A stretch of 64,000 nt of DNA from Bacteroidota bacterium (GCA_022710185.1 JAKLHK010000005.1:65682-129681); one strand, 5' to 3'. Shown: positions 21,139 through 38,740, numbered from the stretch's first letter. A program made the numbers and translations. Notes: generated from the sequence alone by a model not told the origin.

Positions 21139-22215
21139 TCATCCATCCCCCCTCCTTCGCTTGAAATCCTTCTTGTAGTAATCCTTGATCACCTTCCCCA
21201 TGAGTTTTTCCCGCCTCTTCTTCTCGCCGGCCTCGGTCTCGAAGTGGGCACGCTCCCTTTCCAGCCGGAGGTAGTTGTCCCAGGCGTCCGCGTCGATCTC
21301 CCCCTGCTCCAGGGCGTGCAGCACGGCACAGCCGTTCTCCCGGGTGTGGGTGCAATCGGCATAACGGCATTGCCGGGCCAGGTCGAGGATGCGGTCGAAG
21401 GTGGCTTCCAGCCCCCCGCCCCCATCGGTAATGCCTACCTCCCGCATGCCGGGGTTATCAATGATCAGCCCGCCCCCCTTCAGCAGCACAAGCTCCCGGT
21501 GGGTGGTGGTATGTCTCCCCTTGTTCGTGCTTTCGCTCAGGGTCCGTGTGTGCATGTACTCTCCCCCAGCCAGATGGTTGAGCAGGGTTGACTTCCCTGC
21601 ACCGGAAGAGCCCAGCAGGCAATAGGTCTTGCCGGCCTCTATCCTCTGCCTCAGCTCCTCCAAACCTTCTCCGCTCACCGCGCTCATCACCAGGAAGGGC
21701 ACCTCCGGATGGCGCTGCTGCAGCCGCTCCCGCACCTCATGGCAGTGGTTCTCCCCGCACAGGTCAGCTTTGGTGAGCACTATCACCGGGCTCACCCGGG
21801 CGGCATAGCACAGGGTGAGGTAGCGATCCAGACGGTTCAGGTTGAAATCGCGGTCCAGGGCCTGCACCAGGAAGGCATAATCGATGTTGGCCGCGATGAG
21901 TTGTACTTCCCCGTGCTGTCCCACGGCCTGGCGGGTAAGCGCAGCGGTCCGCGGAAGGACCTTATGGATCAGGGCCTGCTCCTCCCCCGCAGCGATCAAG
22001 GCCACCCAATCGCCCACGGCAGGAAAATCCTCCCGGTTGCGGGCACTGAACCTCAGGTTCCCCGTTACCTCCGCCTGCACCTCCCCCCCATCGGTCATCA
22101 CGATATAGCGTTCCTTGTGCTCGGCAGTCACCCTCCCCACACCAAAACCCATCAACCCCTGCTCCCGCCGGTAGTGCTCCAGGTCTTCAGTATAACCCCA
22201 TTCGATGATATTCAT
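21139..22215 (-). CDS. rsgA: Ribosome small subunit-dependent GTPase A (RsgA/YjeQ)
   Basis: Circularly permuted GTPase (TKADL ... GSSGAGKSTLLN) with the zinc knuckle CRYADCTHTRENGCAV. It carries a basic C-terminal tail. Confidence 0.9.
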   Translation of the reverse strand: MNIIEWGYTEDLEHYRREQGLMGFGVGRVTAEHKERYIVMTDGGEVQAEVTGNLRFSARNREDFPAVGDWVALIAAGEEQALIHKVLPRTAALTRQAVGQHGEVQLIAANIDYAFLVQALDRDFNLNRLDRYLTLCYAARVSPVIVLTKADLCGENHCHEVRERLQQRHPEVPFLVMSAVSGEGLEELRQRIEAGKTYCLLGSSGAGKSTLLNHLAGGEYMHTRTLSESTNKGRHTTTHRELVLLKGGGLIIDNPGMREVGITDGGGGLEATFDRILDLARQCRYADCTHTRENGCAVLHALEQGEIDADAWDNYLRLERERAHFETEAGEKKRREKLMGKVIKDYYKKDFKRRRGDG

Positions 22216-22288
22216 GACATTAAAATATAATGTCCCCCAGGCAGCGCCTGACCGGCATCAGGCCTCTCCCCAAATCAACCAGCAGAAA

Positions 22289-25594
<3,306 letters not shown>

Positions 25595-25704
25595 GGGTCT
25601 GTTATTTTCTTGCCCGGCTTGGTTCCGGGTGCCGGGGATACCTGCAATAATCGTTCTATTTCTTCCCCCTGCCATAATGGCAAGAAGGAGTGCAAAGGTA
25701 CGAA

Positions 25705-25740
25705 TACTAAAAAGAGCGGTTTTTACCGCTCTTTTTAGTA
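25705..25740 (-). terminator. Hairpin terminator overlapping the stop of the DUF2795 gene
   Basis: Perfect 16-nt inverted repeat tactaaaaagagcggt / accgctctttttagta with a tttt loop. On the minus strand the stem ends in a U-run. It lies between the DUF2795 stop and the secA start. Confidence 0.55.
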
Positions 25741-26053: not shown

Positions 26054-27646
26054 TTGTATACCATGCCTTTGCCGAAGGACTCCCTGCTCCCCCCCCGCCT
26101 CAGCCGGGCCGCACTGGCCGCCATCCTGGTACTTTGCCTGCTGCTGTATGTCCGGGTGGCCGGTTTTGGGCTGCTCAACTGGGACGATCAGGTGTACATC
26201 ACCCATAACCCCCATGTCAATGGCAACGCGCCAGCCGGCGAGGCCCTGGTCACCAGCTTCGAGGGGCATTACCATCCCCTGGTGCTGTGGTCCCTGCGCT
26301 TCGACCACTTCCTTGGCGGGGGCTCGCCCGTGGTCTTCCACCTGCACAACCTCTTGCTCCACCTGCTGAATGTGCTGCTGGTATTTCTGCTGTTCCGGCG
26401 GCTGGAAGGCGGGGAGCGGGCCGCCTTATGGGTCAGCCTGGTGTTCGCCGTCCACCCCCTGCAGGTGGAGGCGGTAGCCTGGGCCACGGCCCGCAAGGAC
26501 GTGCTGTACGCCCTGTGGTTCCTGCTGGCGCTGGGGTGCTGGCTGCGGTATGCGGAGGATGGGAGGCGACGGTGGTACGCCCTGAGCCTGGCGGCCTTCC
26601 TGCTGGCCCTGCTCTCCAAGGGACAGGCCCTGGTGCTGGCGGCTTTGTTGCCGGTCCTCGACCATTTCCTCGGGGGGAAGGCCCTGCTGAGGGCGCACCG
26701 CCGGGCTTACCTGCCCTTCCTGGGGCTGGCCCTGGGGTTTGCCTATCTTGCCGTATGGGCCCAGCAGCAGAGCGGGTACACCAGCGCCGAGAGTTTCTCC
26801 ACGCCCTGGCACTGGCTGTTGGGCAATGCCGGCTACGCCCTGCTAAGTTATATGCTGCGCATCCTCGTCCCCCTGGGCCTCTCCGCCTACTATCCTTACC
26901 CTGTGCCCGGCCACGACCTCCCGGTCTGGCTGTTCTGGGCTGCGCTTCCCCTGGCCGTGGGGATCGCAGGGGGCAGTACCCGGTTATGGTGGAAGCGCCG
27001 GGCGGTAGGGCTGGGACTGCTCCTTTTCCTTATCTGTCTGGCGCCCATGCTGCGCCTGCTGCCGGTGTCCAACTTCATCACCGCCGACCGTTACACCTAT
27101 GTCGCCCTCCCCGGGGCCATCTGGGCGCTTTACCACGTCCTGCGGCGGCTGGGCCAGGCCCGGAGGGAGGGCCTGCTGGCTGCCCTGGCGCTATTTTTTA
27201 TAGTGCTGACGGCCCTGCGCCTGCCGGTCTGGGGGGATAGCCTCGCCCTGCTGAACGACACCCTGCGGAAGCACCCTGAAGTGGTGCCGGCCTTGAATGC
27301 CCGGGGCGATGTGTTGCTGGAGCAGGGGGACCTTGTGCCGGCCGTGGCGGACTTCAGCGCGGCCATCCGGTTGCGGCCCGGGGAGGCGCGGGCCTATGCC
27401 AACCGCGGCCGTGCCCTGGCGATGGCCGGGGAGATGGACAAGGCCCTCCAGGACCTCGACACGGCCATCCTGCTGGACCCAGGACACCCGGGTATCCGCC
27501 TGAACCGCGCCCTGGCCCTGGCGCGCCTGGGACGCACCCGCGAAGCCCTCCAGGAACTCGACCTCATCCTCTCCCTGGACCCTGGCCACCGCCCCGCCCA
27601 ATTGCTGCGGCAGGAGGTGCAGCAGGCGATGCGTCCGGCGAATTAA
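26054..27646 (+). CDS. Polytopic membrane protein with C-terminal TPR repeats (TMTC/PMT_2-like glycosyltransferase family)
   Basis: 530 aa. The N-terminal two thirds are multi-TM (LLNWDDQVYITHNPHV motif) and the C-terminal about 120 aa are TPR-like (ARAYANRGRALAMAGEMDKALQDLDTAILLDP). Confidence 0.7.
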   Translation: MYTMPLPKDSLLPPRLSRAALAAILVLCLLLYVRVAGFGLLNWDDQVYITHNPHVNGNAPAGEALVTSFEGHYHPLVLWSLRFDHFLGGGSPVVFHLHNLLLHLLNVLLVFLLFRRLEGGERAALWVSLVFAVHPLQVEAVAWATARKDVLYALWFLLALGCWLRYAEDGRRRWYALSLAAFLLALLSKGQALVLAALLPVLDHFLGGKALLRAHRRAYLPFLGLALGFAYLAVWAQQQSGYTSAESFSTPWHWLLGNAGYALLSYMLRILVPLGLSAYYPYPVPGHDLPVWLFWAALPLAVGIAGGSTRLWWKRRAVGLGLLLFLICLAPMLRLLPVSNFITADRYTYVALPGAIWALYHVLRRLGQARREGLLAALALFFIVLTALRLPVWGDSLALLNDTLRKHPEVVPALNARGDVLLEQGDLVPAVADFSAAIRLRPGEARAYANRGRALAMAGEMDKALQDLDTAILLDPGHPGIRLNRALALARLGRTREALQELDLILSLDPGHRPAQLLRQEVQQAMRPAN

Positions 27647-27959
27647 AGTGACTAATTTTGAACGGGTTAGAAGCACATCAATGGCCTGGTCTTAAACTGC
27701 CGTTGTTCCTTGTCCCTTGCACAATATCCCCATCCTTCTGAAATCTGAGATCGTAAATTCCGCCAGCAGGCGGACAATCCTTTTTCGATATTCCATAATT
27801 CACCACAGATTACACAGATTTTCACAGAGGTACCAGTGCCTGAAGTTGATAGTACTTGGAGTTAGGAGTTAAGAGTACCTGGAGTGCTGTACGCTGTCCG
27901 CTTCGCGTTTTTCCGCTATTCGCCTATTTTCATTATCATAAAATATACGCCAAAATCGT

Positions 27960-27992
27960 GGCGGCTATTTCCAGATAATGCAAATAGCCGCC
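27960..27992. other. Perfect 11-bp stem hairpin in the left flank of the island
   Basis: ggcggctattt (27960-27970) pairs with aaatagccgcc (27982-27992) across an 11-nt loop, followed by an A-run on the plus strand. Function unknown. Confidence 0.5.
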
Positions 27993-28305
27993 AAAAATTC
28001 CAGCCACACCCAGCAGAGGGCACGTTGCTCAGTTACTCGCCGGACAGCCAGCCCTTGGCCGGGATTGCGCAAGTGTCTGATTATGTGAAACAAGGAATTT
28101 CCCTTGCATATCACAGCGACCATGTGACTAAAAATCTAACCCAAGGTACCCATAGTCCAAATATTCTCAATATCTTTAGGTCTGTGACTTAGGCTCTTGA
28201 TTATCAGACAATGAACACCGTCCGCTAAATGCGAAATATCCGCCATAGGTTCTGATAGCGAAATGTTATGCCCAATGCTGAAAAACAACCTAACGACAAC
28301 ATAAA

Positions 28306-29760
28306 ATGAAGAAATTTGACCTAAACATTGAGAAAATTCTTGAAAACTGGGAAACATTTCATGCTATCCGAGAACTAATTGCAAATGCACTTGATGAACA
28401 ACTTATTACTAATACAAAGGAGGTTGAAATATTCAAAGTAGGTAATACTTGGAAAATCAGAGACTTTGGACGGGGATTAAAATATACTCATTTGACACAA
28501 AATGAAAACCAAGAAAAACTTTCAAATCCTCATGTTATAGGGAAATTTGGAATTGGACTAAAAGATGCTTTAGCAACTTTCGACAGAAAAGGTATAAAAG
28601 TAATTGCAAAATCAAAACACAGTAAAATAACAATCGCAAAATCTGAAAAAGAAGGGTTCAAAGATTTATTGACTCTTCATGCAATTATTGAAGCCCCACA
28701 AGACCCAAACTTTATTGGGACCGAGTTTGAACTTGTTGGGATAAATGATAATGACATTAACGAGGCAAAAAAATTATTTCTAAAGTTTTCAGGTGAGAGA
28801 ACAATGGAAATTACAAAACAAGGTCAAGTAGTTAGAAAAAACAGCACGTTTGGCAACATTTATATCAATGGAGTAAAAGTTGCGGAAGAAGAAAATTTTC
28901 TCTTCAGCTACAATATTACTGTATTAAATGCTTCAATAAAAAAAGCTCTTAACAGAGAAAGAACAAATGTCGGGAGAAGTGCATATTCAGAATCAGTAAA
29001 AAAAATATTATTGTCTTGCCAATCTAAGGAGGTTGCTGAAACATTGGCTAAAGATTTGACAAATATAAATAGAGGAACTGCACACGACGAGTTAACCTGG
29101 CTTGATGTTCAGGAACACTCTGTTAAAATATTAAATCAACAGGGCAAATTTCTTTTTATAACTTCGTTTGAAGCAATGCAACATCCAGACATGATAGACC
29201 AAGCTAGAAATAGTGGTCATGAAATCATAACAATCCCTGAAAATTTAAAGTATAAAATTCAAGGCTCAACCGACTTTAACGGTAGCCCTATTGTGGATAT
29301 TGGGCAATTCGTTGAAAACTACAATAACAGTTTCAATTTTAACTTTATAGACCCAAATAAATTAAGTCAAAAGGAAAAAGCCATTTATGACCAAACTCCA
29401 AAAATCATTGAACTATTTGGTGGTAAACCATATAAAGTAAAGTCAATAAAAATTTCATCTACAATGAGAAAAGACTTTTTTGGTGAAGTTGAAACACTTG
29501 GTTGCTGGGATGATAATACAAACTCAATAGTTATTTCACGTAAAGTATTAAATAACATTACAGACTTTTCAGGAACTTTGATACATGAGCTCGTTCATGC
29601 TGATACTGGACATGATGATGTAACTAGGGATTTTGAAACATCACTGACAACAATAATTGGACGACTATCTTCAACAATTCTTGGACAAAAAGTTTCCTTA
29701 ATTAGCAATTCAAATTCTAAAAAGAATTCTTCTTGGCTTCAAAAATTTTTTGGAGAGTAA
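28306..29760 (+). CDS. GHKL (Bergerat-fold, MORC/Hsp90-like) ATPase fused to a C-terminal HExxH zincin-like motif
   Basis: 484 aa. N-box ELIANALDE (aa 23-31), G1 box DFGRGL (53-58), G2 box GKFGIGLK (79-86), and IHELVHADTGHDD (HExxH at aa 427-431, nt 29584-29598). Confidence 0.75.
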   Translation: MKKFDLNIEKILENWETFHAIRELIANALDEQLITNTKEVEIFKVGNTWKIRDFGRGLKYTHLTQNENQEKLSNPHVIGKFGIGLKDALATFDRKGIKVIAKSKHSKITIAKSEKEGFKDLLTLHAIIEAPQDPNFIGTEFELVGINDNDINEAKKLFLKFSGERTMEITKQGQVVRKNSTFGNIYINGVKVAEEENFLFSYNITVLNASIKKALNRERTNVGRSAYSESVKKILLSCQSKEVAETLAKDLTNINRGTAHDELTWLDVQEHSVKILNQQGKFLFITSFEAMQHPDMIDQARNSGHEIITIPENLKYKIQGSTDFNGSPIVDIGQFVENYNNSFNFNFIDPNKLSQKEKAIYDQTPKIIELFGGKPYKVKSIKISSTMRKDFFGEVETLGCWDDNTNSIVISRKVLNNITDFSGTLIHELVHADTGHDDVTRDFETSLTTIIGRLSSTILGQKVSLISNSNSKKNSSWLQKFFGE

Positions 29761-30102
29761 TGACAAGTGACAATAAGAAAAATGAATAAAAGCACAGGGC
29801 ATAACAATGTACATATTGCAGGGCGGGGTTTGGAGGTATGCCAACTGCGGATTCTCGCATCGCAGTTCCGTGTCCTTCGGACAGGAACGCTCTCCGAAAT
29901 CCGCCCCGACAACATGTACCAACCGTTACCGCCAAGTGTAAGAGACAGACAACGACATAGAAAAACTGAAAAGTAAACCATTGTGAAAGGACAGAAAAAA
30001 GAAATATTGACTAGACCAGAGACCCGACACTCGAGCCGACCCGATGTTTTTTATTTTTTGCCCACCGCACATTTTTTAAAACAATTGCCGACCCACATTG
30101 CA

Positions 30103-30155
30103 CACATTGCCAAAGCCCCACAAGCCAACGCTACAACCAAAGCTTTGTCAAAGAG
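30103..30155. repeat. 53-bp direct repeat, copy 1 (upstream of the 1668-aa gene)
   Basis: cacattgccaaagccccacAagccaacGctacaaccaaagctttgtcaaagag matches 36982-37034 at 51 of 53 positions. Confidence 0.9.
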
Positions 30156-30191
30156 TGCAATTTTGCCGACACACTAAAAAAGAATATCACT

Positions 30192-33100
30192 ATGCTTTAT
30201 ATAAAAGACCTTTCCTTTTTCAGACAGTATTATAAATCGCAAGAAGCTTTAAATTTTGATAGGTCGATAGATACTTCATTTATTAACACTTTTCACCCTG
30301 AAAAACCAACGAATAAAACTAAAGGTTTTTCTTATTTGGTATATGGTGCAAGAGGTAATATCGGAGGATTTTTAAGGAGTGCTTCATTAAATGTCGCTGC
30401 TGACCAACAAGCGATTTATGAACTTATTCAAAATGCTGACGATTGCGAGGCAAATCTTTTCAGTGTTTTCTACAACAGGGAATATCTATTGTGTATCAAC
30501 AATGGTACTCCATTCTCAAAAAGGAATATGTCAGCAATATTAAATGTTGGCGATTCAGACAAAGATGCAGAAGATATTGGAACATTTGGGATAGGTTTTA
30601 AAATTATTCACCGACTCTTGGGTGAGGATGATGGATTGAAAGCGATATTGAATGATTATGCCGGGCCAATTATATACAGTTGGAATCAGTACAATCATTT
30701 AAAAAGATTACTAAGTGATGATGAAATTGTAATTAATAAAAACGGTTCAAGAGATGATGATTGTCCCTGGTTATTGAAAATAATTTATACCTGTTTTCCA
30801 ACGCATTTAGGTGAAAGTATAAAAAATGAAAAATATTCTGATGAAACATTATTTACAATTGAGGAATTCAATGAATTCAAACTTTTTCTTAAAAATTCAT
30901 TAGCAAAACTTAATACGTTTACGGAAAACAATCTTCGACAAGGTTCAATATTTTTCCTAAGAATTGGTGCAGATAAGTTCAAATACATTGATGAGAATAT
31001 AGATAACATTTTTAATGGAATTGGTTATTCATTCAATTTCCTAAATCATTTGAAGCGAATTTATATTAATGAAAAAGAGATAAATAAAGAGAAAATCACC
31101 TTAGAAAAATTTGAATATCCTATTGGTAGCGATCAATACAACTTAATTAGACCAAGAAATGAAGAACGGAATATTGACTTTTCTTTTTCATATTATAAAA
31201 ACTACAAAACCGCATTAAAACTAAAGGATGTACCAAATATTTATAACTTCTTCTCAATGGAGGAAGAAAAAAATGGTTGGTGTTTCTTATTGCATTGCAA
31301 TTCTTTTGATATGCATAATGATAGAAGAAAACTTCAACCAAATTCAAATATAAATGAACGACTTTTACCCAGTATTGCTAACGAAATCAAACAATTTTTA
31401 GTAGACCTTTCCGACACAAATACTGATTCATTTATCAATATTTATCCATCGTTATTAATAAGTGATATTCCAGAAAGTAAACAACATCTTAAAGATTATT
31501 TTTTCGATATTTTGACTACCATTTTATCGGAGAGAATACCGACAGATAATGGGTTTTCTGATAATTCACAGGATGTGGTAATTAAAAAAACAAAACTACC
31601 AATATCACCAAGAGATTGGGGAGTAGAAAAAGATTGGTTTTATTGGACGGATTTTAAAGAGGATGAGGTAATAATCAAAGAAGCCCAAAAAGAAGAAAAA
31701 ATTGGCCTAGAAAAAGTGTCAATTTCATCATTGATTGAAAATGGAGACATTGATACAATCAATGAATGGATTTTTAATGCGAATGAAAAGGATTTTACTC
31801 TCTTTCTAAATGAGTTAGAAAAGGATATTCCTGATGAAAATTTCCTTGATTTGCAATTTTTAAAATGCTCCGATACTTATTACTATTCAATCAATGAAAT
31901 TGCTTCAAATTCTAATGTTTTGTGCCTTTTTGAAAAGATTCACGAAATAAAGGATATTCTAAACGAATTAGAGTTAATTACAACGGAAATAAATATTTCT
32001 GATTTCAAGAACATCGCAGAAAAAGCTAGTAAAAAACTTCCGTATCTTAAAACTATTGGTGAAAAAAAGGTTTTTGATGATTTTATCAAAGATGCAACAA
32101 CTGAAAATAATTTAACTCCAAAAAGTAAAAAAAGATTATTCGTTGCAATAAAAGAACTTTATAATGTTGGGGACAAATCATTAAAGGAATGGGAATTGTT
32201 TTCCAATAATGAAATGGAAATATGCTCCTTAAACACATTAATAAGCCCTTCAATCAAGGTTGAGAAATGGCTTATCAAATATCAAATCATTAAAAGTGAA
32301 TTCTTTGAAGAACTTGAGGAGTATTTGTTGCAAGCAGATGACATTTACCCATCAATTATTTATCCACTTTGGGACGAGTTAATAGAAGTCGATGAAATTG
32401 ATGAAATAACCATAGGTGAATTTTATTCTTCTGTAAAAAACTATTTTGATGAAGAAGCGCATAAATCACTAACATTAAATAAGAAGGCGTACATTTTTAC
32501 TTCTGAAGGGTTCTTTCCAACATCTGAGGTTTTCTATAATGAAGTTTTTAACTCCATTATGGATTACCCATCCTTAAAAAGCTCAATAGAAAAAGTTACT
32601 GGATTTAAGACACCATCAAAAAAAGTTTTAAAGTACTTAACTGAAAGTCCTTTTAAAACAGATAATGACAAATTATTGGACCATCTTTCTGATTGTTCCA
32701 TAGAGCAGTCAGAAGCTTATGAATTGCTGAGATATTGTCAAAAAGCAGATGTTAAACTTTTTTCGAAAGGAGTTTTTTGTGAATCTGGTAATGATATTGA
32801 CTGGGAATGCAATGATTCAAAAATACAGTACTTTTCAGAAGATTCAAGATTAATTGAATTTATCAATGAATATTTAGAAGATACTTTTTATCTTCTACCA
32901 TCAGCTTTACAGGACTTCAAATTTTTTGAAGGTATCAGACGAAATCAAGAACTTTATGAAGAAATAATTGAGCAACTTGATAATATAAATGATTTGGCGG
33001 CTGAGTTCTTGCCATTATTGAAACATAAAGAAGTTATTAAATCATATATATCAAATTTACCTGATATAAGGATTGAAAACAGAATTTCATTTGATAAAAG

Positions 33101-35198
33101 TAGTTTTGAACATATTGTGGTTTCAAATATCATCTCACATTTTGAAGACGAAGAACTTGAAGAAATAAAGGAGAGAATTATAATTTGCGATGATGATACT
33201 GAATTTAAATTAGAAGAAATAGTTACTGGTAACGAGGTTCAATTTGACATCGATAATAAGTTATACAATATCAAAGTTTCGGAAATATTGCCTGACTCTG
33301 ACAATTTTTCCAAAGCTGAAATACTTGACGTTATTATTGCAAATTTCAAAAAACTTGAACTGTCCAAAACCAAAATTGATAAATTACTCTCTGTCGAGAT
33401 TGAAGAGGACGACCTTGCTGAAAAACTTGCCGAGGAATTACTTGGGTCACTTGAAGATAATATCCTTGAAACTGCTGAACAGATTGCTTTTTGTCTTTTA
33501 TATGAATTACAGGCAGGGTGGTCTAAATTTGATGATTTTCAGATTTACGCTTCGAACAATGAAACATATAAACTAAATGAGGTATGGTATGCCAAACCAT
33601 TTTCATTTCTAAGTGAAACAGGTGCAATTGGGGAACAATATAAAGGGCTTTCAAAGTTGCTCAAGATTAAAGATGAAAACCCAATTTTTAAAGTCAGTGA
33701 TAGTTGTATTTTTCTTTATAAACCTGCTTTTGATGAAGATGGTAGATTTGTTTGCAATTATATTGATGAGAAATTAGACGATGACAATAGTATTGCGTTA
33801 CTCGATTTTTTGTTTGAAGAATATAATAAACGAGGAAAGGAAAGCAGACGTGACTTTGAGGAAATTGATGATTGGTCAAAACTTGGAGACACTGAAACAG
33901 AAAAAATAATAGGCATCAATCCGCATAATACAATCTTTATCGAAAACGATAAATTTATGTTGTCTGATGAAGTCGTACCGGAGTGGATTCAGGATTGGGC
34001 AAAAGATGAAGCAAAAATTTCATTCTTAAAAGTATTGGGAATTCATTTCAATGATTCGGATATTGTTAAGCTAAGGGAATCTCTTTATGATGAAGATGGC
34101 TCTATAACAAAGAATGACATAAATGGAAGTAACTCCTTAAATGCATTTTTATTGGAGAACACTTTAAAATGGCTTGTAGAATCAGAGATATGGGAAGATA
34201 AGGTAATTGATGAACCTGTAAAAGTTGAACTTCTTGATGCGATTATTGAAAAATTAGGTTGGGATTTAGAGGATTATTGGTCTGTTGACATTGAAGAACT
34301 AAATGAAAACAGCGAGGAATGGGTAGATGAGGGTTATTCAAATTGGCGTGAAGAAGAGGATTCATTTGAAATAAGAATGTATAATGATCAAATGCCTTAT
34401 ATCTTACAATATGAAAATAATATTCTTGCTGAGAAAAATCAAGATGAATACTGGTATGATGATGAAAATCAAATATTTTATACAAACAAAAATAAATCCA
34501 CCCATTTATTGCTTCAAAATGCTGCTGAAGAAGAGTTGTTTGATTTAGACACAATAAAACCACTAATCCAACAAGGTCTGGTAAAAGTTAAAGATTATGT
34601 AGATCGCATAGAGCAACTTGAAGCAGAATTACAGCAATTTAGACAACCTAAAGGAGATATTACTAGAGGTACTGCTGATTCAGAAACAATGGGTGCAGTT
34701 CTTGATGAAACTCTAAATATGGTTAGAGAAGAACTAGAACAAGACGAGAATTATAATTGCACACATTGGGACAATTCACGATTTCCAAAGACTTTGGTTC
34801 AAGGGGTATTATATAAAGAGATTCCGATAAAGCTGATCGTTCGCAGTTGTCAAAGAGGTAGACTCCATCTAATCCCTAAAGAATGGCTATTACTATCAGA
34901 ACCTAATACTTTTTTAGTGCTACGGTTATCAAAACACAAAATTGAAGTAATCCCAGAACCACTTAAGGAGCTTGCCGAATCAAACAACCTATTTAATATG
35001 AATTTTGATTTGGAAAGATTAACCACAAATGGGGTCACAGCTTTAAGCAAGGCAATTGAAAGTTCAAATATTAAATATGTTGGTGTTGGTTTCGTAATAG
35101 ATGCACCAAGATATTCCAGAAGTATTGAACTTAATGAAATCGGATTATACGTTACAAATCAGGGTGATATTTCATCTGCAAATGACAATGAGTTTTAA
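30192..35198 (+). CDS. Giant sacsin/NO VEIN-like GHKL ATPase domain protein with a possible NOV_C (DUF3883)-like C-terminal module
   Basis: 1668 aa. YELIQNADD (aa 76-84), INNGTPF (102-108) and GTFGIGFK (130-137) reproduce the sacsin SRR pattern (ELIQNAxDA ... NN..F ... GrFGIGF). About 1300 aa of acidic/lysine-rich sequence has no motif I recognise. Residues about 1500-1590 resemble NOV_C. Confidence 0.7.
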   Translation: MLYIKDLSFFRQYYKSQEALNFDRSIDTSFINTFHPEKPTNKTKGFSYLVYGARGNIGGFLRSASLNVAADQQAIYELIQNADDCEANLFSVFYNREYLLCINNGTPFSKRNMSAILNVGDSDKDAEDIGTFGIGFKIIHRLLGEDDGLKAILNDYAGPIIYSWNQYNHLKRLLSDDEIVINKNGSRDDDCPWLLKIIYTCFPTHLGESIKNEKYSDETLFTIEEFNEFKLFLKNSLAKLNTFTENNLRQGSIFFLRIGADKFKYIDENIDNIFNGIGYSFNFLNHLKRIYINEKEINKEKITLEKFEYPIGSDQYNLIRPRNEERNIDFSFSYYKNYKTALKLKDVPNIYNFFSMEEEKNGWCFLLHCNSFDMHNDRRKLQPNSNINERLLPSIANEIKQFLVDLSDTNTDSFINIYPSLLISDIPESKQHLKDYFFDILTTILSERIPTDNGFSDNSQDVVIKKTKLPISPRDWGVEKDWFYWTDFKEDEVIIKEAQKEEKIGLEKVSISSLIENGDIDTINEWIFNANEKDFTLFLNELEKDIPDENFLDLQFLKCSDTYYYSINEIASNSNVLCLFEKIHEIKDILNELELITTEINISDFKNIAEKASKKLPYLKTIGEKKVFDDFIKDATTENNLTPKSKKRLFVAIKELYNVGDKSLKEWELFSNNEMEICSLNTLISPSIKVEKWLIKYQIIKSEFFEELEEYLLQADDIYPSIIYPLWDELIEVDEIDEITIGEFYSSVKNYFDEEAHKSLTLNKKAYIFTSEGFFPTSEVFYNEVFNSIMDYPSLKSSIEKVTGFKTPSKKVLKYLTESPFKTDNDKLLDHLSDCSIEQSEAYELLRYCQKADVKLFSKGVFCESGNDIDWECNDSKIQYFSEDSRLIEFINEYLEDTFYLLPSALQDFKFFEGIRRNQELYEEIIEQLDNINDLAAEFLPLLKHKEVIKSYISNLPDIRIENRISFDKSSFEHIVVSNIISHFEDEELEEIKERIIICDDDTEFKLEEIVTGNEVQFDIDNKLYNIKVSEILPDSDNFSKAEILDVIIANFKKLELSKTKIDKLLSVEIEEDDLAEKLAEELLGSLEDNILETAEQIAFCLLYELQAGWSKFDDFQIYASNNETYKLNEVWYAKPFSFLSETGAIGEQYKGLSKLLKIKDENPIFKVSDSCIFLYKPAFDEDGRFVCNYIDEKLDDDNSIALLDFLFEEYNKRGKESRRDFEEIDDWSKLGDTETEKIIGINPHNTIFIENDKFMLSDEVVPEWIQDWAKDEAKISFLKVLGIHFNDSDIVKLRESLYDEDGSITKNDINGSNSLNAFLLENTLKWLVESEIWEDKVIDEPVKVELLDAIIEKLGWDLEDYWSVDIEELNENSEEWVDEGYSNWREEEDSFEIRMYNDQMPYILQYENNILAEKNQDEYWYDDENQIFYTNKNKSTHLLLQNAAEEELFDLDTIKPLIQQGLVKVKDYVDRIEQLEAELQQFRQPKGDITRGTADSETMGAVLDETLNMVREELEQDENYNCTHWDNSRFPKTLVQGVLYKEIPIKLIVRSCQRGRLHLIPKEWLLLSEPNTFLVLRLSKHKIEVIPEPLKELAESNNLFNMNFDLERLTTNGVTALSKAIESSNIKYVGVGFVIDAPRYSRSIELNEIGLYVTNQGDISSANDNEF

Positions 35199-36968
35199 AT
35201 GCAATTAGACCGAACTGAACATATTAAACTGTTAGACCTTGAGTTAAAAACTCAATCAGACAATTATTTAAAACTGGTTTTACAGAAAGCAACTGCCCTT
35301 ATTGAACAAGAGGAGGTCTTCACAAGTCAGTTTGTGAAATTTGAAGATGGAATACTTGTATTAAAATTAAAAACAGAAAAAGCACTTCCTCGCAAAGGTC
35401 AATACTTATCAGCAGTTTTACTAAATGATGAAAAAAGAAGTTATAAAAACTGGGGTGATTTGTCTTGGGCTGAATTGAGAAACAAATATCAAAATAGTTT
35501 TTCTGAATGTGTTTGTGTTTGGCATAAGTCATATGATGAGAAAAGATTTCAGCTAGCAGGCTTTAAAGGTATTTCACTTGATTTTGCTGGGAAATTGGTT
35601 GACAAGTGTTTAGTTACCCTTGGTCCGCACGAACCACCTTTGAAATATTTGCAAAATTTAATCGAGATAGTTACAAATACTCCAAAAGATCTACCCTCTG
35701 CAAGATTCCTTGATATTCATTTAGCTAATAATGAGTGGATTCCTACGATACTTGATGAGAAACGTAACTTATCTGATTTTATTCAAACGCAACTTTCTAT
35801 TTCTGATGAAATTATTATTCAAGGACCTCCAGGAACAGGGAAGACTTATCAAATGGCAAAATTAATTGCTGACTTATTAGATAAAAACAAAAGTGTCCTT
35901 GCTACTTCATTAACCAATCGTTCGTTAATAGAATTGGCTTCAAAGAAGTTTTTGGAAAATCATCGTAAAAGTGAAAAGATTTACAAAACAAATCTTACTA
36001 AAGACGAACAAGAAGAATTGCCAGGGTTATTAAACTCAAAGGATATTCAGGTAATATCAGGTACAGTATTGCTTTCAACATTTTATATCTCAAGTGGCTT
36101 TGCAAAAGAAATACAAGATGAACCACCGTTTGATTTTGTTATTGTTGATGAAGCAAGTCAGGCTTTATTATCAATGTTTTGTGCTGCAAAGAAACTAGGG
36201 AAGAAAGTTGTTTTTATTGGAGACCCGTATCAATTACCACCGGTTGTTGAAGTCAATAAGGATATAATTGAAAAGAAAAATGCTATAAGTTTTGTTGAAG
36301 GATTCAATACTATCTGTAGAAATTTATCAATTCCATCATTTCAACTAACAGAAACCTACAGGCTGCCAACAAGAGCTACCCAATATACTGGTCTATTTTA
36401 CCGTAACACATTAGTTTCAAAGGCAAATAAAAAACTGAGATTCCAATTTCCTGAATGCGGTCTTGAATTTAATAAATATCTAAACCCTGATGGTGGACCT
36501 GTATTGATTAAATCAAGTTTTCCAATTGGTAATGACAACCCTGATTTTGGTCTTTTTTTAATCATAGACTTTTTAAAACAGTTGATGTTTGTTTTGGAAA
36601 AGGATTTCAAGATAGCTTTAATTGCAAAAACTAAAAAGGCAGTAAGAGCAATTCAAAAAGCAATGACAGCAACTTTTGGCAGTGATGATAGGATTTTAAT
36701 TGAAACTGTTGAAAGAATTCAAGGTCTTACTTGTGACTTAACCATTTTTTTCATCCCAAATTCAAGTATGAATTATTCTTTGAAAAAGCCGCTATTTAAT
36801 GTCGCAACAAGTAGAGCAACGAGACACACAATAATTATTGCAGACAAAGCAATTACTACATATCCTATTGCTGACAAACTTGTTAGAGATTTTATTCATA
36901 AATTGAACGATGAATATAGTTTTGAAATTGAACCAAAAATAAATATGAAAAAACTTACAGAAGGTTAA
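35199..36968 (+). CDS. Superfamily 1 helicase, Upf1/DNA2-like (AAA_11/AAA_12 type)
   Basis: 589 aa. Walker A GPPGTGKT (aa 209-216, nt 35823-35846), Walker B VIVDEASQ, GDPYQLPPV, TYRLP, ERIQGLTCD and NVATSRATRH. The ATG directly abuts the TAA of the upstream gene. Confidence 0.85.
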   Translation: MQLDRTEHIKLLDLELKTQSDNYLKLVLQKATALIEQEEVFTSQFVKFEDGILVLKLKTEKALPRKGQYLSAVLLNDEKRSYKNWGDLSWAELRNKYQNSFSECVCVWHKSYDEKRFQLAGFKGISLDFAGKLVDKCLVTLGPHEPPLKYLQNLIEIVTNTPKDLPSARFLDIHLANNEWIPTILDEKRNLSDFIQTQLSISDEIIIQGPPGTGKTYQMAKLIADLLDKNKSVLATSLTNRSLIELASKKFLENHRKSEKIYKTNLTKDEQEELPGLLNSKDIQVISGTVLLSTFYISSGFAKEIQDEPPFDFVIVDEASQALLSMFCAAKKLGKKVVFIGDPYQLPPVVEVNKDIIEKKNAISFVEGFNTICRNLSIPSFQLTETYRLPTRATQYTGLFYRNTLVSKANKKLRFQFPECGLEFNKYLNPDGGPVLIKSSFPIGNDNPDFGLFLIIDFLKQLMFVLEKDFKIALIAKTKKAVRAIQKAMTATFGSDDRILIETVERIQGLTCDLTIFFIPNSSMNYSLKKPLFNVATSRATRHTIIIADKAITTYPIADKLVRDFIHKLNDEYSFEIEPKINMKKLTEG

Positions 36969-36981
36969 CCCGATTTGCAAG

Positions 36982-37034
36982 CACATTGCCAAAGCCCCAC
37001 GAGCCAACACTACAACCAAAGCTTTGTCAAAGAG
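36982..37034. repeat. 53-bp direct repeat, copy 2 (downstream of the helicase gene)
   Basis: It matches 30103-30155 with 2 mismatches and begins 14 nt after the helicase stop codon. Confidence 0.9.
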
Positions 37035-37357
37035 CTTGCAAAGCCAACGCACCGAGAAAAATTGTTTTAAAAAATTTGCCGACACTTAAAAAAATAAAAA
37101 ACGCTGACACACAAGCCGACAGAAAAAAGTAAAATGACAATGACACGAAAACTGAATATTAACAATGGTATACAAGACTGGAAGACAGAACACCAGGCGG
37201 TAACAGGCGGTATATTTTATTGCCGAGACAGTGGGTATTTCAGCGTTTCTGCATCTAATAAACTTTCGTGTAACTTGACAGTGAAGTGCTTCGAAATCGG
37301 CAACAAAAACATACCGCCAATCCGTTAGCAGCCATATCAAAATAGCAGGACTAAACT

Positions 37358-37849
37358 ATGAGAATCTTTTTAATTATTTTATTCTTTTTAGCTTTCACTT
37401 TAGTTAATGCCCAATACAAAATGTTTTCAGGTATTCATGATACAATCAACTTAGATTTGTCGACTTTACTGGAGAATACTGGCTTTGGGAAAGCAACATA
37501 CTATTATGATGATATTGAGAAGAAAGATGGTGTTTGGAACTTCTATCCAATGATTAATTTGTCAAAATCATTAACCGCAGTATGGGTCAGCACAATTCCA
37601 GGCCGAAATAATGGCTATACATTTCTTTTAATTTTTGATATTAATACTCATAAAATCTCGGATACCTTGGGACCATATTATGATTCTAGTATTGATGCTA
37701 TTAAGGGCAGAATAAAGAAGAATAATTTAAATTATTTAAAGGTTCGACTATCAAATCCACCGGAAGTAGAGAATTCAAAATATACTATCAGGGAATATAA
37801 ACGTATTGAGGGTAACCTTAAAGAATATAGAAGTCGTGATAATTATTGA
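37358..37849 (+). CDS. Small secreted hypothetical protein
   Basis: 163 aa, AT-rich codon usage. Signal peptide MRIFLIILFFLAFTLVNA followed by Q at +1. No recognisable catalytic motif. Confidence 0.6.
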   Translation: MRIFLIILFFLAFTLVNAQYKMFSGIHDTINLDLSTLLENTGFGKATYYYDDIEKKDGVWNFYPMINLSKSLTAVWVSTIPGRNNGYTFLLIFDINTHKISDTLGPYYDSSIDAIKGRIKKNNLNYLKVRLSNPPEVENSKYTIREYKRIEGNLKEYRSRDNY

Positions 37850-38179
37850 TACGGCTGCTAATAAGTAAGGCTTCGTGCGGCGATAGCCCAGTCCGCCATC
37901 TGGCGGATTGCACGAAATCCCGCGCCTTATGGGGTTTAAGTATCGAAAGCAGTGATCAGGGAAGAGCGAACGACAAGGTTCTTGGATAAGCTAAAGCAGG
38001 CAGGCTGGTTGAAAGGCCAGTAACCGGGTCTTTTGAAAGGATTTAGGGGCGAAATATCTTTCGGGGACTAATCCCGCGCATCAGCGCGTAAACATTACCG
38101 GACCCGGCAGGCGGCAGGATTTGTCAGGCCTCGCTCAACCTAAGCATTGATTTGGGCAGATGCACCCCGGCCCCTCCCC

Positions 38180-38740
38180 TCAATACTCCGGCGCCCAGGG
38201 GCTTTCCCCGGCATTGGTCTCCTGCCCCAGGAAACGGGCCAGCACGAAGAAGTAGTCGGAAAGACGGTTGAGGTAACGCAGGATCACGGGATCCACCGGG
38301 TGCTCCCGCCCCAGGGTAATGGTAGTGCGCTCGGCCCGGCGGCATACGGTGCGCGCCACATGGGCCAGCGACACCACGGCATGGCCCCCGGGGAGCAAAA
38401 AACGGGTGAGCGGGGGCAAACGGTCGTTCATCCGGTCGATGGCCTGTTCCAGCACCACCACCTCCTCCTCGCGCAGCTGGGGCAGGGCCCGCGGCTTGCC
38501 CCCCGGGTCCACGGCCAGCCACGACTCGGCCGTGAAGATCTGCTCCTGGATCCGGACCAGCTCGGCCCTCACCCCCGCCGCCTCGGGCTGGTCGCGCAAC
38601 AACCCGATGAAGGAGTTCAGCTCGTCCAGGGTGCCGTAAGCCTCAATGCGCAGGTGGTCCTTGGGCACCCGGGTGCCCCCGATCAGGGAGGTCTGGCCTG
38701 CATCGCCCCCCTTGGTGTAAATCTTGAATGGTTCGCTCAT
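38180..38740 (-). CDS. ATP:cob(I)alamin adenosyltransferase, PduO type
   Basis: 186 aa. The N-terminal IYTKGGDAGQTSL and the helical-bundle pattern are typical of the PduO/MMAB family. Confidence 0.88.
   Translation of the reverse strand: MSEPFKIYTKGGDAGQTSLIGGTRVPKDHLRIEAYGTLDELNSFIGLLRDQPEAAGVRAELVRIQEQIFTAESWLAVDPGGKPRALPQLREEEVVVLEQAIDRMNDRLPPLTRFLLPGGHAVVSLAHVARTVCRRAERTTITLGREHPVDPVILRYLNRLSDYFFVLARFLGQETNAGESPWAPEY

What the first reader, a model, noticed from the sequence alone, without database searches (positions are those of the whole stretch)
27647..38179. About 10.5-kb AT-rich island with no visible mobility genes; donor probably an AT-rich Bacteroidota
Spot counts give 17/60 G+C (line 30181) inside the island versus 38/60 (line 10201) outside. 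The change coincides with the gap between the TPR-membrane gene and the adenosyltransferase gene. I found no integrase, transposase, tRNA or long terminal repeats. Two features hint that the donor was itself Bacteroidota. The small secreted protein has a signal peptide ending VNA with Q at +1, which fits the Bacteroidota Q-rule. The repeat blocks contain AnnTTTG motifs resembling the Bacteroidota -7 promoter box. The non-coding spacers inside the island are noticeably more GC-rich than its genes, the opposite of what is usual.
Basis: partly seen in the sequence, partly recalled or inferred. Interest (0 to 1): 0.6.

Follow-up and report, generated by a model that had tools for sequence, protein, structure and literature searches.

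The report
Imported integron-type defence cassette array
The AT-rich island is real and foreign: it is a row of three integron-style gene cassettes, one carrying a two-gene Tiamat-like anti-phage system. The cassettes come from a widespread Bacteroidota pool of unusually large defence cassettes with standard flanking modules.

Summary
About 28.3-37.9 kb has 28-37% G+C against about 60% outside, and GC3 is 0.22-0.27 in island genes against 0.85-0.88 in host genes.

The host is a high-GC Bacteroidales MAG close to Lentimicrobiaceae. Most of the 80 related genomes examined keep ABC-AdoT-SecA at this site, and none carries an island gene.

The island has no integrase, transposase or tRNA. It does have a clear mobility signature: three co-oriented cassettes, each ending in a 90-140 nt attC-like hairpin with conserved AAC...GTT. 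Each cassette begins, right after G|TT, with the exact complement of its own hairpin's 5' arm.
- Cassette A, 28266-29925: a 484-aa GHKL/zincin-like protein.
- Cassette B, 29926-37324: TmtA (PADLOC E=0) plus an SF1B helicase.
- Cassette C, 37325-37934: a 163-aa secreted protein.

Cassette B sits between conserved 5' and 3' modules that share a 53-nt hairpin. These modules occur in at least 120 AT-rich metagenome contigs, around restriction-modification (RM), Gabija-like, DRT and MADS genes and many other cargoes.

Related arrays start beside a co-oriented, often decayed tyrosine recombinase that lacks the IntI-specific domain.

Verdict: a new variant of a known kind, an integron-like defence-cassette platform. 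The Bacteroidota donor is supported.

The parts
27647..28265 (.). Unresolved proximal non-coding stretch (G+C 0.45). It ends in ...GATAGCGAAATG|TT and contains the hairpin TCCGCCAGCAGGCGGA at 27759-27774. It could be a decayed array start (attI-like) or host intergenic DNA.
   Evidence: no similarity to 125 related loci; no integrase remnant; only loose likeness to the attI-like motif ATAAGnGAGTT.
28266..29925 (+). Cassette A. It starts with TTATGCCC, the exact complement of its own attC R'' arm.
   Evidence: GTTATGCCC at 28265-28273 is the reverse complement of GGGCATAAC at 29797-29805 (sequence); (D-module 3' half at 29759-29935).
28306..29760 (+). Gene for a 484-aa protein with a weak GHKL/sacsin-type ATPase N-terminus and a zincin (SprT-like, HExxH) C-terminus. 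Precomputed Pfam family: MPN635_N.
   Evidence: No PADLOC hit and no PDB relative.
29797..29933 (+). attC-like site of cassette A (R'' GGGCATAAC ... R' GTTACCGCC). It folds as a long imperfect hairpin.
   Evidence: DNA fold -28 to -30 kcal/mol.
29926..37324 (+). Cassette B (7.4 kb): 5' U-module, tmtA, helicase, 3' D-module with attC.
   Evidence: The same unit occurs in three other genomic contexts at about 86% DNA identity. Homology ends at ...CCGTTA|. TTACCGCC at 29926-29933 complements GGCGGTAA at 37196-37203.
29926..30186 (+). U-module: conserved 5' leader of the cassette. It holds GCCGAC(A/C)C iterons, hairpin H (30097-30161) and AATTTTG at 30159, 33 nt before the ATG (candidate -7 box).
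30192..35198 (+). tmtA: 1668-aa Tiamat-family protein with a sacsin-type ATP-binding N-terminus. The last ~210 aa are hypervariable among close relatives.
   Evidence: PADLOC TmtA PDLC03970, E=0, 1146.7 bits, residues 4-1614; Pfam SACS and NCBIfam P_loop_sacsin.
35199..36968 (+). 589-aa SF1B (Upf1/IGHMBP2/DNA2-like) helicase. Its ATG abuts the tmtA stop codon.
   Evidence: Paired with tmtA in all close relatives and in one relative at 38% identity.
36973..37324 (+). D-module: conserved 3' trailer. It holds hairpin H (36974-37042) starting 5 nt after the stop codon, an A-rich iteron region with AAATTTG at 37072, and then the attC.
37196..37333 (+). attC-like site of cassette B (R'' GGCGGTAAC, L'' GGCGGTAT ... 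L' ATACCGCC, spacer AATCC, R' GTTAGCAGCC).
37325..37934 (+). Cassette C. It starts with TTAGCAGCC, the complement of its own R''-like arm GGCTGCTAAT (37853-37862).
   Evidence: Sequence; fold.
37358..37849 (+). Gene for a 163-aa protein with an N-terminal signal peptide (...LVNA|Q). It matches no family, and its protein cluster holds only this MAG.
37853..37940 (+). Degenerate terminal attC of cassette C (R'' core AAT instead of AAC; stem AAGGCTTCGTGC/GCACGAA..GCGCCTT enclosing TCCGCCATCTGGCGGA; R' G|TTTAAG).
37935..38179 (.). Junction stretch to the host gene for cobalamin adenosyltransferase (G+C 0.535). Probably host or target DNA.
   Evidence: no similarity to related loci.

Best explanation
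**What it is.** The island is a horizontally acquired integron-type array of three gene cassettes with no integrase of its own (CALIN-like). It sits between the convergent 3' ends of a TPR/PMT_2 gene and the adenosyltransferase gene of a 60%-GC Bacteroidales MAG.

**Cassette structure (shown).**
- Each cassette is a co-oriented gene or operon followed by a structured attC-like site (R''-L''...L'-R', with only AAC and GTT invariant).
- Each cassette begins immediately after G|TT with the distal half of its own R' arm. That is the footprint of site-specific recombination at G|TT of a once-circular cassette.

**Origin (inferred).** The cassettes were assembled in low-GC Bacteroidota by a tyrosine recombinase acting in trans. 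The array then arrived recently in this lineage and is now probably static.

**Cargo.** Cassette B is a self-contained defence module. TmtA, a Tiamat-family sacsin/GHKL-type ATPase, is translationally coupled to an SF1B helicase. Anti-phage function is inferred from family membership and from its company in defence islands elsewhere.

**Flanking modules.** Cassette B lies between a standard 5' module and a standard 3' module. The 5' module has iterons, a 53-nt hairpin and an AnnTTTG box, and is likely the promoter with an upstream insulator. The 3' module starts with the same hairpin just after the stop codon, likely a terminator, and then carries the attC. Hundreds of other cassettes use the same two modules around different defence operons. 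I infer they act as a common chassis into which cargo is recruited.
For: **Composition and absence from relatives.**

**Not an assembly artefact.** Both junctions are identical in at least 5 independent assemblies.

**Complementarity of cassette start and own attC arm.** A is 9/9, B is 9/9, C is 9/10 (sequences; coordinates in the parts list).

**Same cassette in other contexts.** Cassette B occurs in three other contexts, and homology breaks exactly after ...CCGTTA.

**Crossover test on 93 sites.**
- The 7 nt after GTT of site i complement the 7 nt before AAC of site i+1: mean 4.9/7, and 14 of 24 pairs reach 6/7 or better.
- Against the same site's own arm the mean is 2.8/7.
- For random pairs the mean is 2.55/7, and 4.6% reach 6/7 or better.

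**Hairpin structure.** 84% of cells are paired, against 62% in shuffles (0 of 500 reach the observed value) and 30-43% when partners are slid. All 10 pairs of the inner stem show compensatory changes.

**Cargo elsewhere.** The modules occur in at least 120 AT-rich contigs. 86% of 698 ORFs are co-oriented. In a 50-protein sample, cargo includes type I/II/III RM, GajB-like, DRT and MADS components.

**Link to a recombinase.** Arrays of the same attC family start beside a co-oriented tyrosine recombinase and an attI-like ATAAGnGAGTT|RGCA junction in L215, L230 (Kaistella flava) and L235.

**TmtA membership.** PADLOC E=0.
Against: - The 64-kb window holds no recombinase.
- The recombinase beside related arrays is short between the catalytic K and H (62 aa). 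The integron-integrase model TIGR02249 matches it only in two pieces and below cut-off, so it lacks the IntI-specific domain. It is usually frameshifted or truncated.
- IntegronFinder's attC model could not be run.
- The sites are at or above the top of the usual attC length range (as I recall it) and have an asymmetric spacer of 1 nt against 5 nt.
- 10 of 24 neighbouring pairs fail the complementarity test. Undetected sites in between are the likely cause, but this was not shown.
- The proximal 619 nt (27647-28265) are unexplained.
- The role of the 53-nt hairpin is unknown. One contig lacks a 106-nt block containing it, precisely and without a target-site duplication. The cassette model does not predict that.
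- How the array entered this chromosome is unknown.
Confidence: 0.75

Rival explanations
1. The island is an ordinary defence island that arrived by homologous or illegitimate recombination. The conserved spacers would be only regulatory modules (promoter plus terminator hairpins), and cargo would shuffle by homologous recombination between them, as with PeSL cassettes of T4-type phages. No site-specific recombination is involved.
For: - The U and D modules are 77-93% identical across unrelated cargo, which is ample substrate for homologous recombination.
- AnnTTTG boxes and a hairpin right after stop codons look regulatory.
- The hairpin plus A-rich part also follows a copper-resistance operon on Flavobacterium plasmids with no attC part.
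- The window has no recombinase.
Against: Homologous recombination does not explain three results:
- each cassette starts with the complement of its own hairpin arm, at single-base resolution;
- the R' distal half tracks the next site rather than its own;
- the hairpin shows strong compensatory covariation while only AAC and GTT are invariant.
Confidence: 0.13
2. The tmtA-helicase unit is mobilised as a composite element by its two flanking 53-nt hairpin repeats. These would act as MITE-like or HUH/rolling-circle ends, perhaps served by the IS91-type Y2 transposases seen next to some arrays.
For: - Direct hairpin repeats flank the cargo in every context.
- A 106-nt hairpin block is precisely present or absent between two contigs encoding the identical TmtA, with no target-site duplication.
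- IS91-type elements sit at array starts in L137 and L231.
Against: - Homology between contexts runs well beyond the hairpins, out to the G|TT sites.
- IS91-type elements in other places carry no U or D modules.
- Only 2 of 125 loci show the IS.
Confidence: 0.07
3. The island is an assembly or binning chimera: an AT-rich contig from another organism wrongly joined to a GC-rich one.
For: The source is a metagenome-assembled genome, and the composition switch is extreme.
Against: Both junctions are reproduced at 99.98-100% identity in independent assemblies from ENA, JGI, NCBI and Logan, made with different assemblers.
Confidence: 0.02
4. The genes are old and vertically inherited, kept AT-rich by selection.
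For: No strain lacking the island was found within this species. All sampled contigs are identical.
Against: - None of the 80 related genomes has any island gene at the conserved ABC-AdoT-SecA site.
- A GC3 gap of 0.6 shows no amelioration.
- The same cassette is found at about 86% DNA identity in unrelated low-GC genomes.
Confidence: 0.03

Closest known systems
Integron cassette arrays without integrase (CALINs) and sedentary chromosomal integrons that stock anti-phage cassettes (Cury et al. 2016, PMC4889954; Darracq et al. 2024 preprint, 10.1101/2024.07.02.601686)
   Same: - Co-oriented cassettes, each with a 3' structured site built as R''-L''...L'-R' with conserved AAC/GTT.
- Crossover footprint at G|TT.
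- Homogeneous sites within a lineage, as with Vibrio VCRs.
- Defence cargo.
- Decayed integrases.
- IS elements inserted in the sites.
- Integrase co-oriented with the cassettes, as in the 'inverted' integron group.
   Different: - Validated cassettes measure 0.75-9.4 kb and often hold whole multi-gene systems. The integron literature stresses small, streamlined cassettes.
- Large cassettes carry standard 5' and 3' modules with a shared 53-nt hairpin and a likely promoter of their own.
- The neighbouring recombinase lacks the IntI-specific domain.
- The spacer asymmetry is unusual.
- The 7.4-kb spacing between sites exceeds the default clustering distance of IntegronFinder as I recall it (4 kb), so standard scans may miss such arrays.
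Tiamat anti-phage system (TmtA; Millman et al. 2022, recalled from memory; PADLOC model PDLC03970)
   Same: Full-length match of the 1668-aa protein to a PADLOC TmtA model (E=0). It has an N-terminal sacsin/GHKL-type ATP-binding domain and is found inside defence islands (BREX, McrBC, GmrSD, type I RM neighbours).
   Different: - Tiamat is catalogued as a single gene. Here, and in relatives down to 38% identity, tmtA is translationally coupled to a 587-589-aa SF1B helicase.
- A 35%-identity relative has no helicase.
- Pfam DUF3883 is present in more distant homologues but not detected here.
- I know of no established mechanism, and the papers I searched gave none.
PeSL mobile regulatory cassettes of T4-type phages (Arbiol et al. 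2010, recalled from memory)
   Same: Conserved promoter-plus-stem-loop units flank diverse accessory genes and could mediate modular shuffling.
   Different: Here the units lie inside attC-bounded cassettes on bacterial chromosomes. The boundaries are site-specific, not homology-based.

Membership tests
Integron cassette array | attC architecture: imperfect inverted repeats R''-L''...L'-R' with conserved ...AAC and GTT... cores; structure conserved more than sequence | tested here: met
   In 93 sites only AAC(A) and (C)GTT are invariant. 84% of cells are paired against 62% in shuffles, and 17 of 18 L-box and inner-stem pairs show changes on both sides.
Integron cassette array | Cassette boundary at G|TT of R', so that a cassette begins with the distal R' half of its own attC | tested here: met
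   Window cassettes A, B and C score 9/9, 9/9 and 9/10. Shared-cassette homology ends at CCGTTA|.
Integron cassette array | Cassette genes co-oriented, with the attC at their 3' end | tested here: met
   All four island genes are on the + strand. 597 of 698 ORFs in related loci are co-oriented.
Integron (complete) | Adjacent integron integrase IntI carrying the IntI-specific additional domain | tested here: not met
   - The window has no recombinase.
- The recombinase beside related arrays has 62 aa between catalytic K and H. IntI1 has 106 and XerD 72 (residue numbers from memory).
- TIGR02249 matches in two pieces at 100-123 bits, against a cut-off of 265.
Integron (complete) | attI site and Pc promoter at the array start | tested here: inconclusive
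   A shared ATAAGnGAGTT|RGCA junction follows the recombinase in L215, L230 and L235. The end of window 27647-28265 resembles it only loosely. No promoter was mapped.
Integron cassette array | Detection by the IntegronFinder attC covariance model; extrahelical bases in the folded bottom strand | not testable with these tools
   The model was not available. Bottom-strand and top-strand folds are about equally stable, and alifold favours the reverse strand.
Tiamat (TmtA) | Protein matching the TmtA family profile over its full length | tested here: met
   PDLC03970, E=0, 1146.7 bits, residues 4-1614 against profile positions 3-1538 of 1552.
Tiamat (TmtA) | Single-gene system | tested here: not met
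   A conserved, translationally coupled helicase partner is present.
Tiamat (TmtA) | Protection against phage | not testable with these tools
   This needs an experiment.

The most novel reading that the evidence does not exclude
Bacteroidota carry a distinct integron-like platform. It would be driven by a short XerA-like tyrosine recombinase without the IntI domain. Its cassettes are large, self-expressing 'plug-and-play' defence modules built on a standard chassis: a 5' promoter/insulator module and a 3' terminator-plus-attC module that share a 53-nt hairpin. This chassis would lift the size limit thought to restrict integron cassettes to streamlined systems, and it would spread whole RM, Tiamat-helicase, DRT, Gabija-like and MADS systems across the phylum, including across a 30-point G+C gap.
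Probability: 0.35. Interest if true: 0.85.

Novelty: new variant of a known kind. Interest (0 to 1): 0.66.

Why it matters
Integrons have recently been recognised as stores of anti-phage genes, but cassettes are considered small and promoterless, and Bacteroidota barely feature in that work. This locus leads to a family present in at least 120 metagenome contigs. In it, complete multi-gene defence systems of up to about 9 kb travel as attC-bounded cassettes with standard flanking modules, and standard integron scans may miss them.

Practical consequences:
- The conserved modules give a direct handle for harvesting new defence systems from Bacteroidota.
- They offer a testable recombination system: recombinase, attI-like site and attC.
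- The tmtA-helicase pairing is a two-gene Tiamat variant that can be tested genetically.

Tried and rejected
- **Rfam, permissive mode, 26-40 kb.** Nothing relevant.
- **Viral contigs scanned for the hairpin pattern.** One chance hit inside a coding region.
- **Apparent contig breaks at 28180.** An artefact of the 10-kb flank limit, not an assembly break.
- **L001/L002 'different neighbours' and the '1520-aa TmtA'.** Gene-calling differences on identical DNA. The only SNP is at 37009, in the hairpin loop.
- **'Big ORF' 22205-25738 (+).** The antisense shadow of SecA.
- **25-nt inverted similarity around the TCCGCC-N4-GGCGGA hairpins at both island edges.** Considered as terminal inverted repeats. 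Only 5 of 8 positions match outside the palindrome, so this was not pursued.
- **Home-made AAC...GTT stem scanner.** Too unspecific to find further sites in 27647-28265 or 37850-38179.
- **First container alignment of 96 proteins.** The tool failed. A 50-protein version was used instead.
- **PDB sequence searches.** Nothing for TmtA or the 484-aa protein.
- **Pfam on TmtA segments.** No DUF3883.
- **TmtA on plasmids (tblastn).** No match.
- **Literature searches.** No description of Bacteroidota arrays of this kind and no Tiamat mechanism.
- **268-aa recombinase found in L137.** It belongs to an IS91-type element (with a Y2 transposase) that occurs in many unrelated places, so it is not the array recombinase.
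Full report
**1. Observation**

In 1-kb windows G+C is 0.55-0.66 everywhere except 28001-38000, where it is 0.28-0.37. At 200-nt resolution the fall is at 27600-28300 and the rise at 37800-38200. Third-codon G+C is 0.22-0.27 for the four island genes and 0.85-0.88 for the flanking TPR, adenosyltransferase, ABC and SecA genes. There is therefore no sign of amelioration.

The 64-kb window has no tRNA and no tyrosine recombinase. Neighbouring genes are housekeeping.

**2. Host, and absence from relatives**

Exact protein look-ups place the window on a 145,558-bp contig of an NCBI MAG labelled Bacteroidales bacterium. The closest genome in the species collection is an uncultured Lentimicrobiaceae, with 76% identity for the adenosyltransferase.

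Most of the 80 related loci keep ABC-AdoT adjacent, and about half also have SecA just downstream. None has a homologue of any island protein, or of the TPR/PMT_2 gene, within 10 kb. Note that my 'big_22205' query in that call was the antisense shadow of SecA.

Both junctions of the island are reproduced at 99.98-100% identity in independent ENA, JGI, NCBI and Logan assemblies. That excludes a chimera. No island-free strain of the same species was found.

**3. Gene content**

All four genes are on the + strand.
- 28306-29760 encodes a 484-aa protein with weak GHKL/sacsin-type ATPase signals at the N-terminus and a zincin HExxH (SprT-like) C-terminus. It has no defence-library hit.
- 30192-35198 encodes a 1668-aa protein that matches PADLOC TmtA (Tiamat) over its full length, E=0 and 1146.7 bits. 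It has a sacsin-type ATP-binding N-terminus.
- 35199-36968 starts on the base after the tmtA stop codon. It encodes a 589-aa SF1B helicase of the Upf1/IGHMBP2/DNA2 kind.
- 37358-37849 encodes a 163-aa secreted protein with no known family. It is found only in this MAG.

**4. The tmtA-helicase pair is one mobile unit**

TmtA relatives at 75-89% identity lie on AT-rich contigs (G+C 0.27-0.43) and are always followed by the helicase. Their neighbours differ: DUF3825 and ParA-like genes in one context; GmrSD, type I RM and AbiE in another; an rve transposase in a third.

A 38%-identity relative keeps the helicase inside a BREX/McrBC island. A 35%-identity Flexibacter relative lacks it.

DNA homology between the window and these contexts spans about 29994/30080 to 37327/37345 at about 86% identity. 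The exception is the 3' end of tmtA (34567-35212), which is too divergent to align with L008/L010, although L012 aligns right through it. Named relatives of TmtA and the helicase are Bacteroidales, Paludibacter, Prevotellaceae, Symbiothrix and Flexibacter.

**5. Conserved flanking modules**

A 53-nt sequence at 30103-30155 and 36982-37034 is 96% identical between the two copies. It flanks the pair in every context and is better conserved than the genes. It forms a hairpin whose outer stem differs between upstream and downstream copies in a compensatory way: TTGCAC/GTGCAA against TTGCAAGC/GCTTGCAA.

In these contigs the hairpin is always co-oriented with the genes. It lies either about 21 nt after a stop codon or 36-110 nt before a start codon.

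Profile searches show that the hairpins are parts of two larger modules:
- a 3' D-module of about 360 nt, made of the hairpin, an A-rich region with GCCGAC(A/C)C iterons, and a structured block;
- a 5' U-module of about 250 nt, made of iterons, the hairpin, and an AnnTTTG box shortly before the ATG.

In some spacers D is followed directly by U. In the window, the 3' half of a D-module follows the 484-aa gene (29759-29935). It is followed by a U-module (29923-30169), then tmtA-helicase, then a full D-module (36973-37327).

The cargo between modules is very diverse: 698 ORFs fall into 501 clusters, and 86% are co-oriented. In a sample of 50 cargo proteins it includes type I/II/III RM, GajB-like helicases, DRT reverse transcriptase-helicases, MADS components, radical SAM enzymes and many proteins with no assigned function.

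**6. The structured block is an attC-like recombination site**

Evidence from 93 distinct copies:
- Only AAC(A) near the 5' end and (C)GTT near the 3' end are invariant.
- The layout is R'' (for example GGCGGTAAC) - 1 nt - L'' (GGCGGTAT) ... L' (ATACCGCC) - AATCC - R' (GTTACCGCC).
- RNAalifold finds a 10-bp inner stem in which every pair shows compensatory changes, for example CG 46 / GC 40.
- For my 22-pair model, 84% of cells pair, against 62% in shuffles (0 of 500 reach the observed value) and 30-43% when partners are slid. The covariation score is 0.52 against 0.16.

The decisive evidence is the crossover footprint.
- The same tmtA cassette in three contexts loses homology exactly after ...CCGTTA.
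- Across arrays, the 7 nt after GTT of one site complement the 7 nt before AAC of the next site downstream: mean 4.9/7, and 14 of 24 pairs reach 6/7 or better.
- They do not complement the site's own arm (mean 2.8/7), and random pairs give 2.55/7, with 4.6% reaching 6/7 or better.

This is what integron-type recombination at G|TT produces. Each cassette carries the distal half of its own R' at its 5' end.

**7. Reading the window with this key** (sequences)

- Cassette A is 28266-29925. GTTATGCCC at 28265-28273 is the exact reverse complement of GGGCATAAC at 29797-29805.
- Cassette B is 29926-37324. GTTACCGCC at 29925-29933 complements GGCGGTAAC at 37196-37204.
- Cassette C is 37325-37934. GTTAGCAGCC at 37324-37333 complements GGCTGCTAAT at 37853-37862. 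Its core has mutated from AAC to AAT. A hairpin follows, and then G|TTTAAG at 37934|37935.

The array therefore ends at 37934. The stretch 37935-38179 (G+C 0.535) is probably host or target DNA.

The proximal 27647-28265 (G+C 0.45) has no similarity to any related locus and no integrase remnant. Its last bases resemble only loosely the attI-like motif described below. It remains unresolved.

**8. Link to a recombinase**

Two recombinase fragments turned up in the 125 loci.

The first, in L137, belongs to a 268-aa family that is always paired with an IS91-type Y2 transposase and occurs in many unrelated places. It is an IS, not the array's enzyme.

[quoted passage not shown] Its relatives are found in Flavobacterium, Kaistella and others. 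They are nearly all truncated or frameshifted:
- a 124-aa stump in Kaistella flava, CP040442;
- a 202+175-aa split in L231;
- a 255+154-aa frameshift in L235 and L236.

In L215, L230 and L235 the gene is followed by a shared junction ATAAGnGAGTT|RGCA and then by co-oriented cassettes. The first cassette's attC arm complements the bases after that junction. One attC in L235 is almost identical to a member of the window's family, and three copies of a DDE IS sit exactly in R' sites.

The recombinase has 62 aa between the catalytic K and H. From memory, IntI1 has 106 and XerD 72. The integron-integrase model TIGR02249 matches it in two pieces and far below cut-off. The best model is XerA / 'integron integrase' NF040815, also below cut-off. 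The platform is therefore integron-like in its sites and products but fails the IntI-domain criterion.

**9. Mechanism, with steps marked**

Shown:
- foreign composition and absence from relatives;
- cassette structure with a G|TT footprint;
- structural conservation of the sites;
- reuse of the same cassette and modules elsewhere;
- TmtA family membership and the conserved helicase partner.

Inferred:
- Cassettes were assembled in low-GC Bacteroidota by a trans-acting tyrosine recombinase.
- The array then moved recently into this MAG's lineage, by an unknown route, and is now static.
- The U-module supplies a promoter (AATTTTG 33 nt before the tmtA ATG), with the hairpin acting as an upstream insulator.
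- The same hairpin just after the stop codon acts as a terminator.
- TmtA and the helicase act together as an NTP-driven sensor/effector against phage nucleic acid. The mechanism is unknown: no PDB relatives were found and the literature I could search gives none.

**10. What stays unexplained**

- The function of the 53-nt hairpin and the iterons is unknown.
- Two contigs encoding the identical TmtA differ by the precise presence or absence of a 106-nt hairpin block, with no target-site duplication.
- The hairpin plus A-rich part follows a copper-resistance operon on Flavobacterium plasmids without any attC.
- The nature of 27647-28265 is unresolved.
- It is unclear why almost all array-adjacent recombinases are decayed.

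**11. Comparison with what is known, and novelty**

Defence genes in integron cassettes are known, but they are described as small, streamlined systems shaped by cassette size limits. Bacteroidota are only listed among phyla with integrons. Co-oriented 'inverted' integrases are known in Treponema and others. I found no description of multi-kb defence cassettes with standard 5' and 3' modules, or of this recombinase.

The finding is best filed as a new variant of a known kind. It misses that the 'repeat blocks' and G+C-rich spacers are themselves the mobility apparatus.

Noticed in passing
L012:140-246 versus L014:1840-1862: Two contigs encode the identical TmtA protein. They differ by the precise presence or absence of a 106-nt block (iteron-hairpin-iteron) just upstream of the ATG, with no target-site duplication and no repeat remnant. 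This suggests the hairpin block can insert or excise on its own.
   Followed up: partly
L235:10640-10930, 13575-13855 and a third copy near 16300: Three identical 534-aa DDE_Tnp_1 (DUF772) IS copies lie within one cassette array. At the two junctions read (10640-10930 and 13575-13855) the IS sits at the same point of an attC R' core (...AGCCGT|CAAACTGTC). This looks like an attC-targeting IS, analogous to the IS1111-attC group in classical integrons.
   Followed up: no
L137:1-1646; L231:9746-10671; L223-L229: A two-gene IS91-type element (268-aa tyrosine recombinase plus 383-385-aa Y2 transposase) is very abundant in metagenomes. It twice sits between an array-type integrase or array start and the first cassette.
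   Followed up: partly
L230:10001-10375; L231:8389-9518; L235:8078-9465; L236; L215:346-702: The recombinase next to cassette arrays is truncated or frameshifted at different positions in every case examined. The 120 best database relatives are all 103-208 aa long.
   Followed up: partly
window 34567-35212 (TmtA residues ~1459-1668): The C-terminal ~210 aa of TmtA do not align at DNA level with the L008/L010 relatives, while the rest is about 86% identical; L012 aligns right through this region. The helicase partner is much more conserved: its 90%-identity cluster has 85 members. This suggests diversifying selection or module swapping at the TmtA C-terminus.
   Followed up: no
L234 (Flavobacterium sp. 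CBA20B-1 plasmid NZ_CP092371.1) 4440-4647: The hairpin plus A-rich part of the D-module lies 11 nt after a multicopper oxidase gene of a copper-resistance operon on a 64.6-kb plasmid. This part of the module is therefore not restricted to defence cassettes or to attC-bounded arrays.
   Followed up: partly
window 27759-27774 and 37892-37907: The palindrome TCCGCC-N4-GGCGGA occurs only twice in 64 kb, once near each edge of the island. The right copy lies inside the terminal attC of cassette C. The left copy is unexplained.
   Followed up: partly
window 22205-25738 (+) versus 22289-25675 (-): An 1177-aa open frame runs antisense to SecA. It is an artefact of high G+C, yet it gives strong tblastn hits in relatives because SecA is conserved.
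   Followed up: yes
window 26063-27646: The G+C-rich TPR/PMT_2 membrane gene bordering the island is also missing from the ABC-AdoT-SecA site of all 80 relatives. This intergenic site may have taken up DNA more than once.
   Followed up: no
window 27921-27993: Nested palindromes in the unresolved proximal stretch (for example TGGCGGCTATTT-N11-AAATAGCCGCCA). They may be remains of further recombination sites.
   Followed up: no
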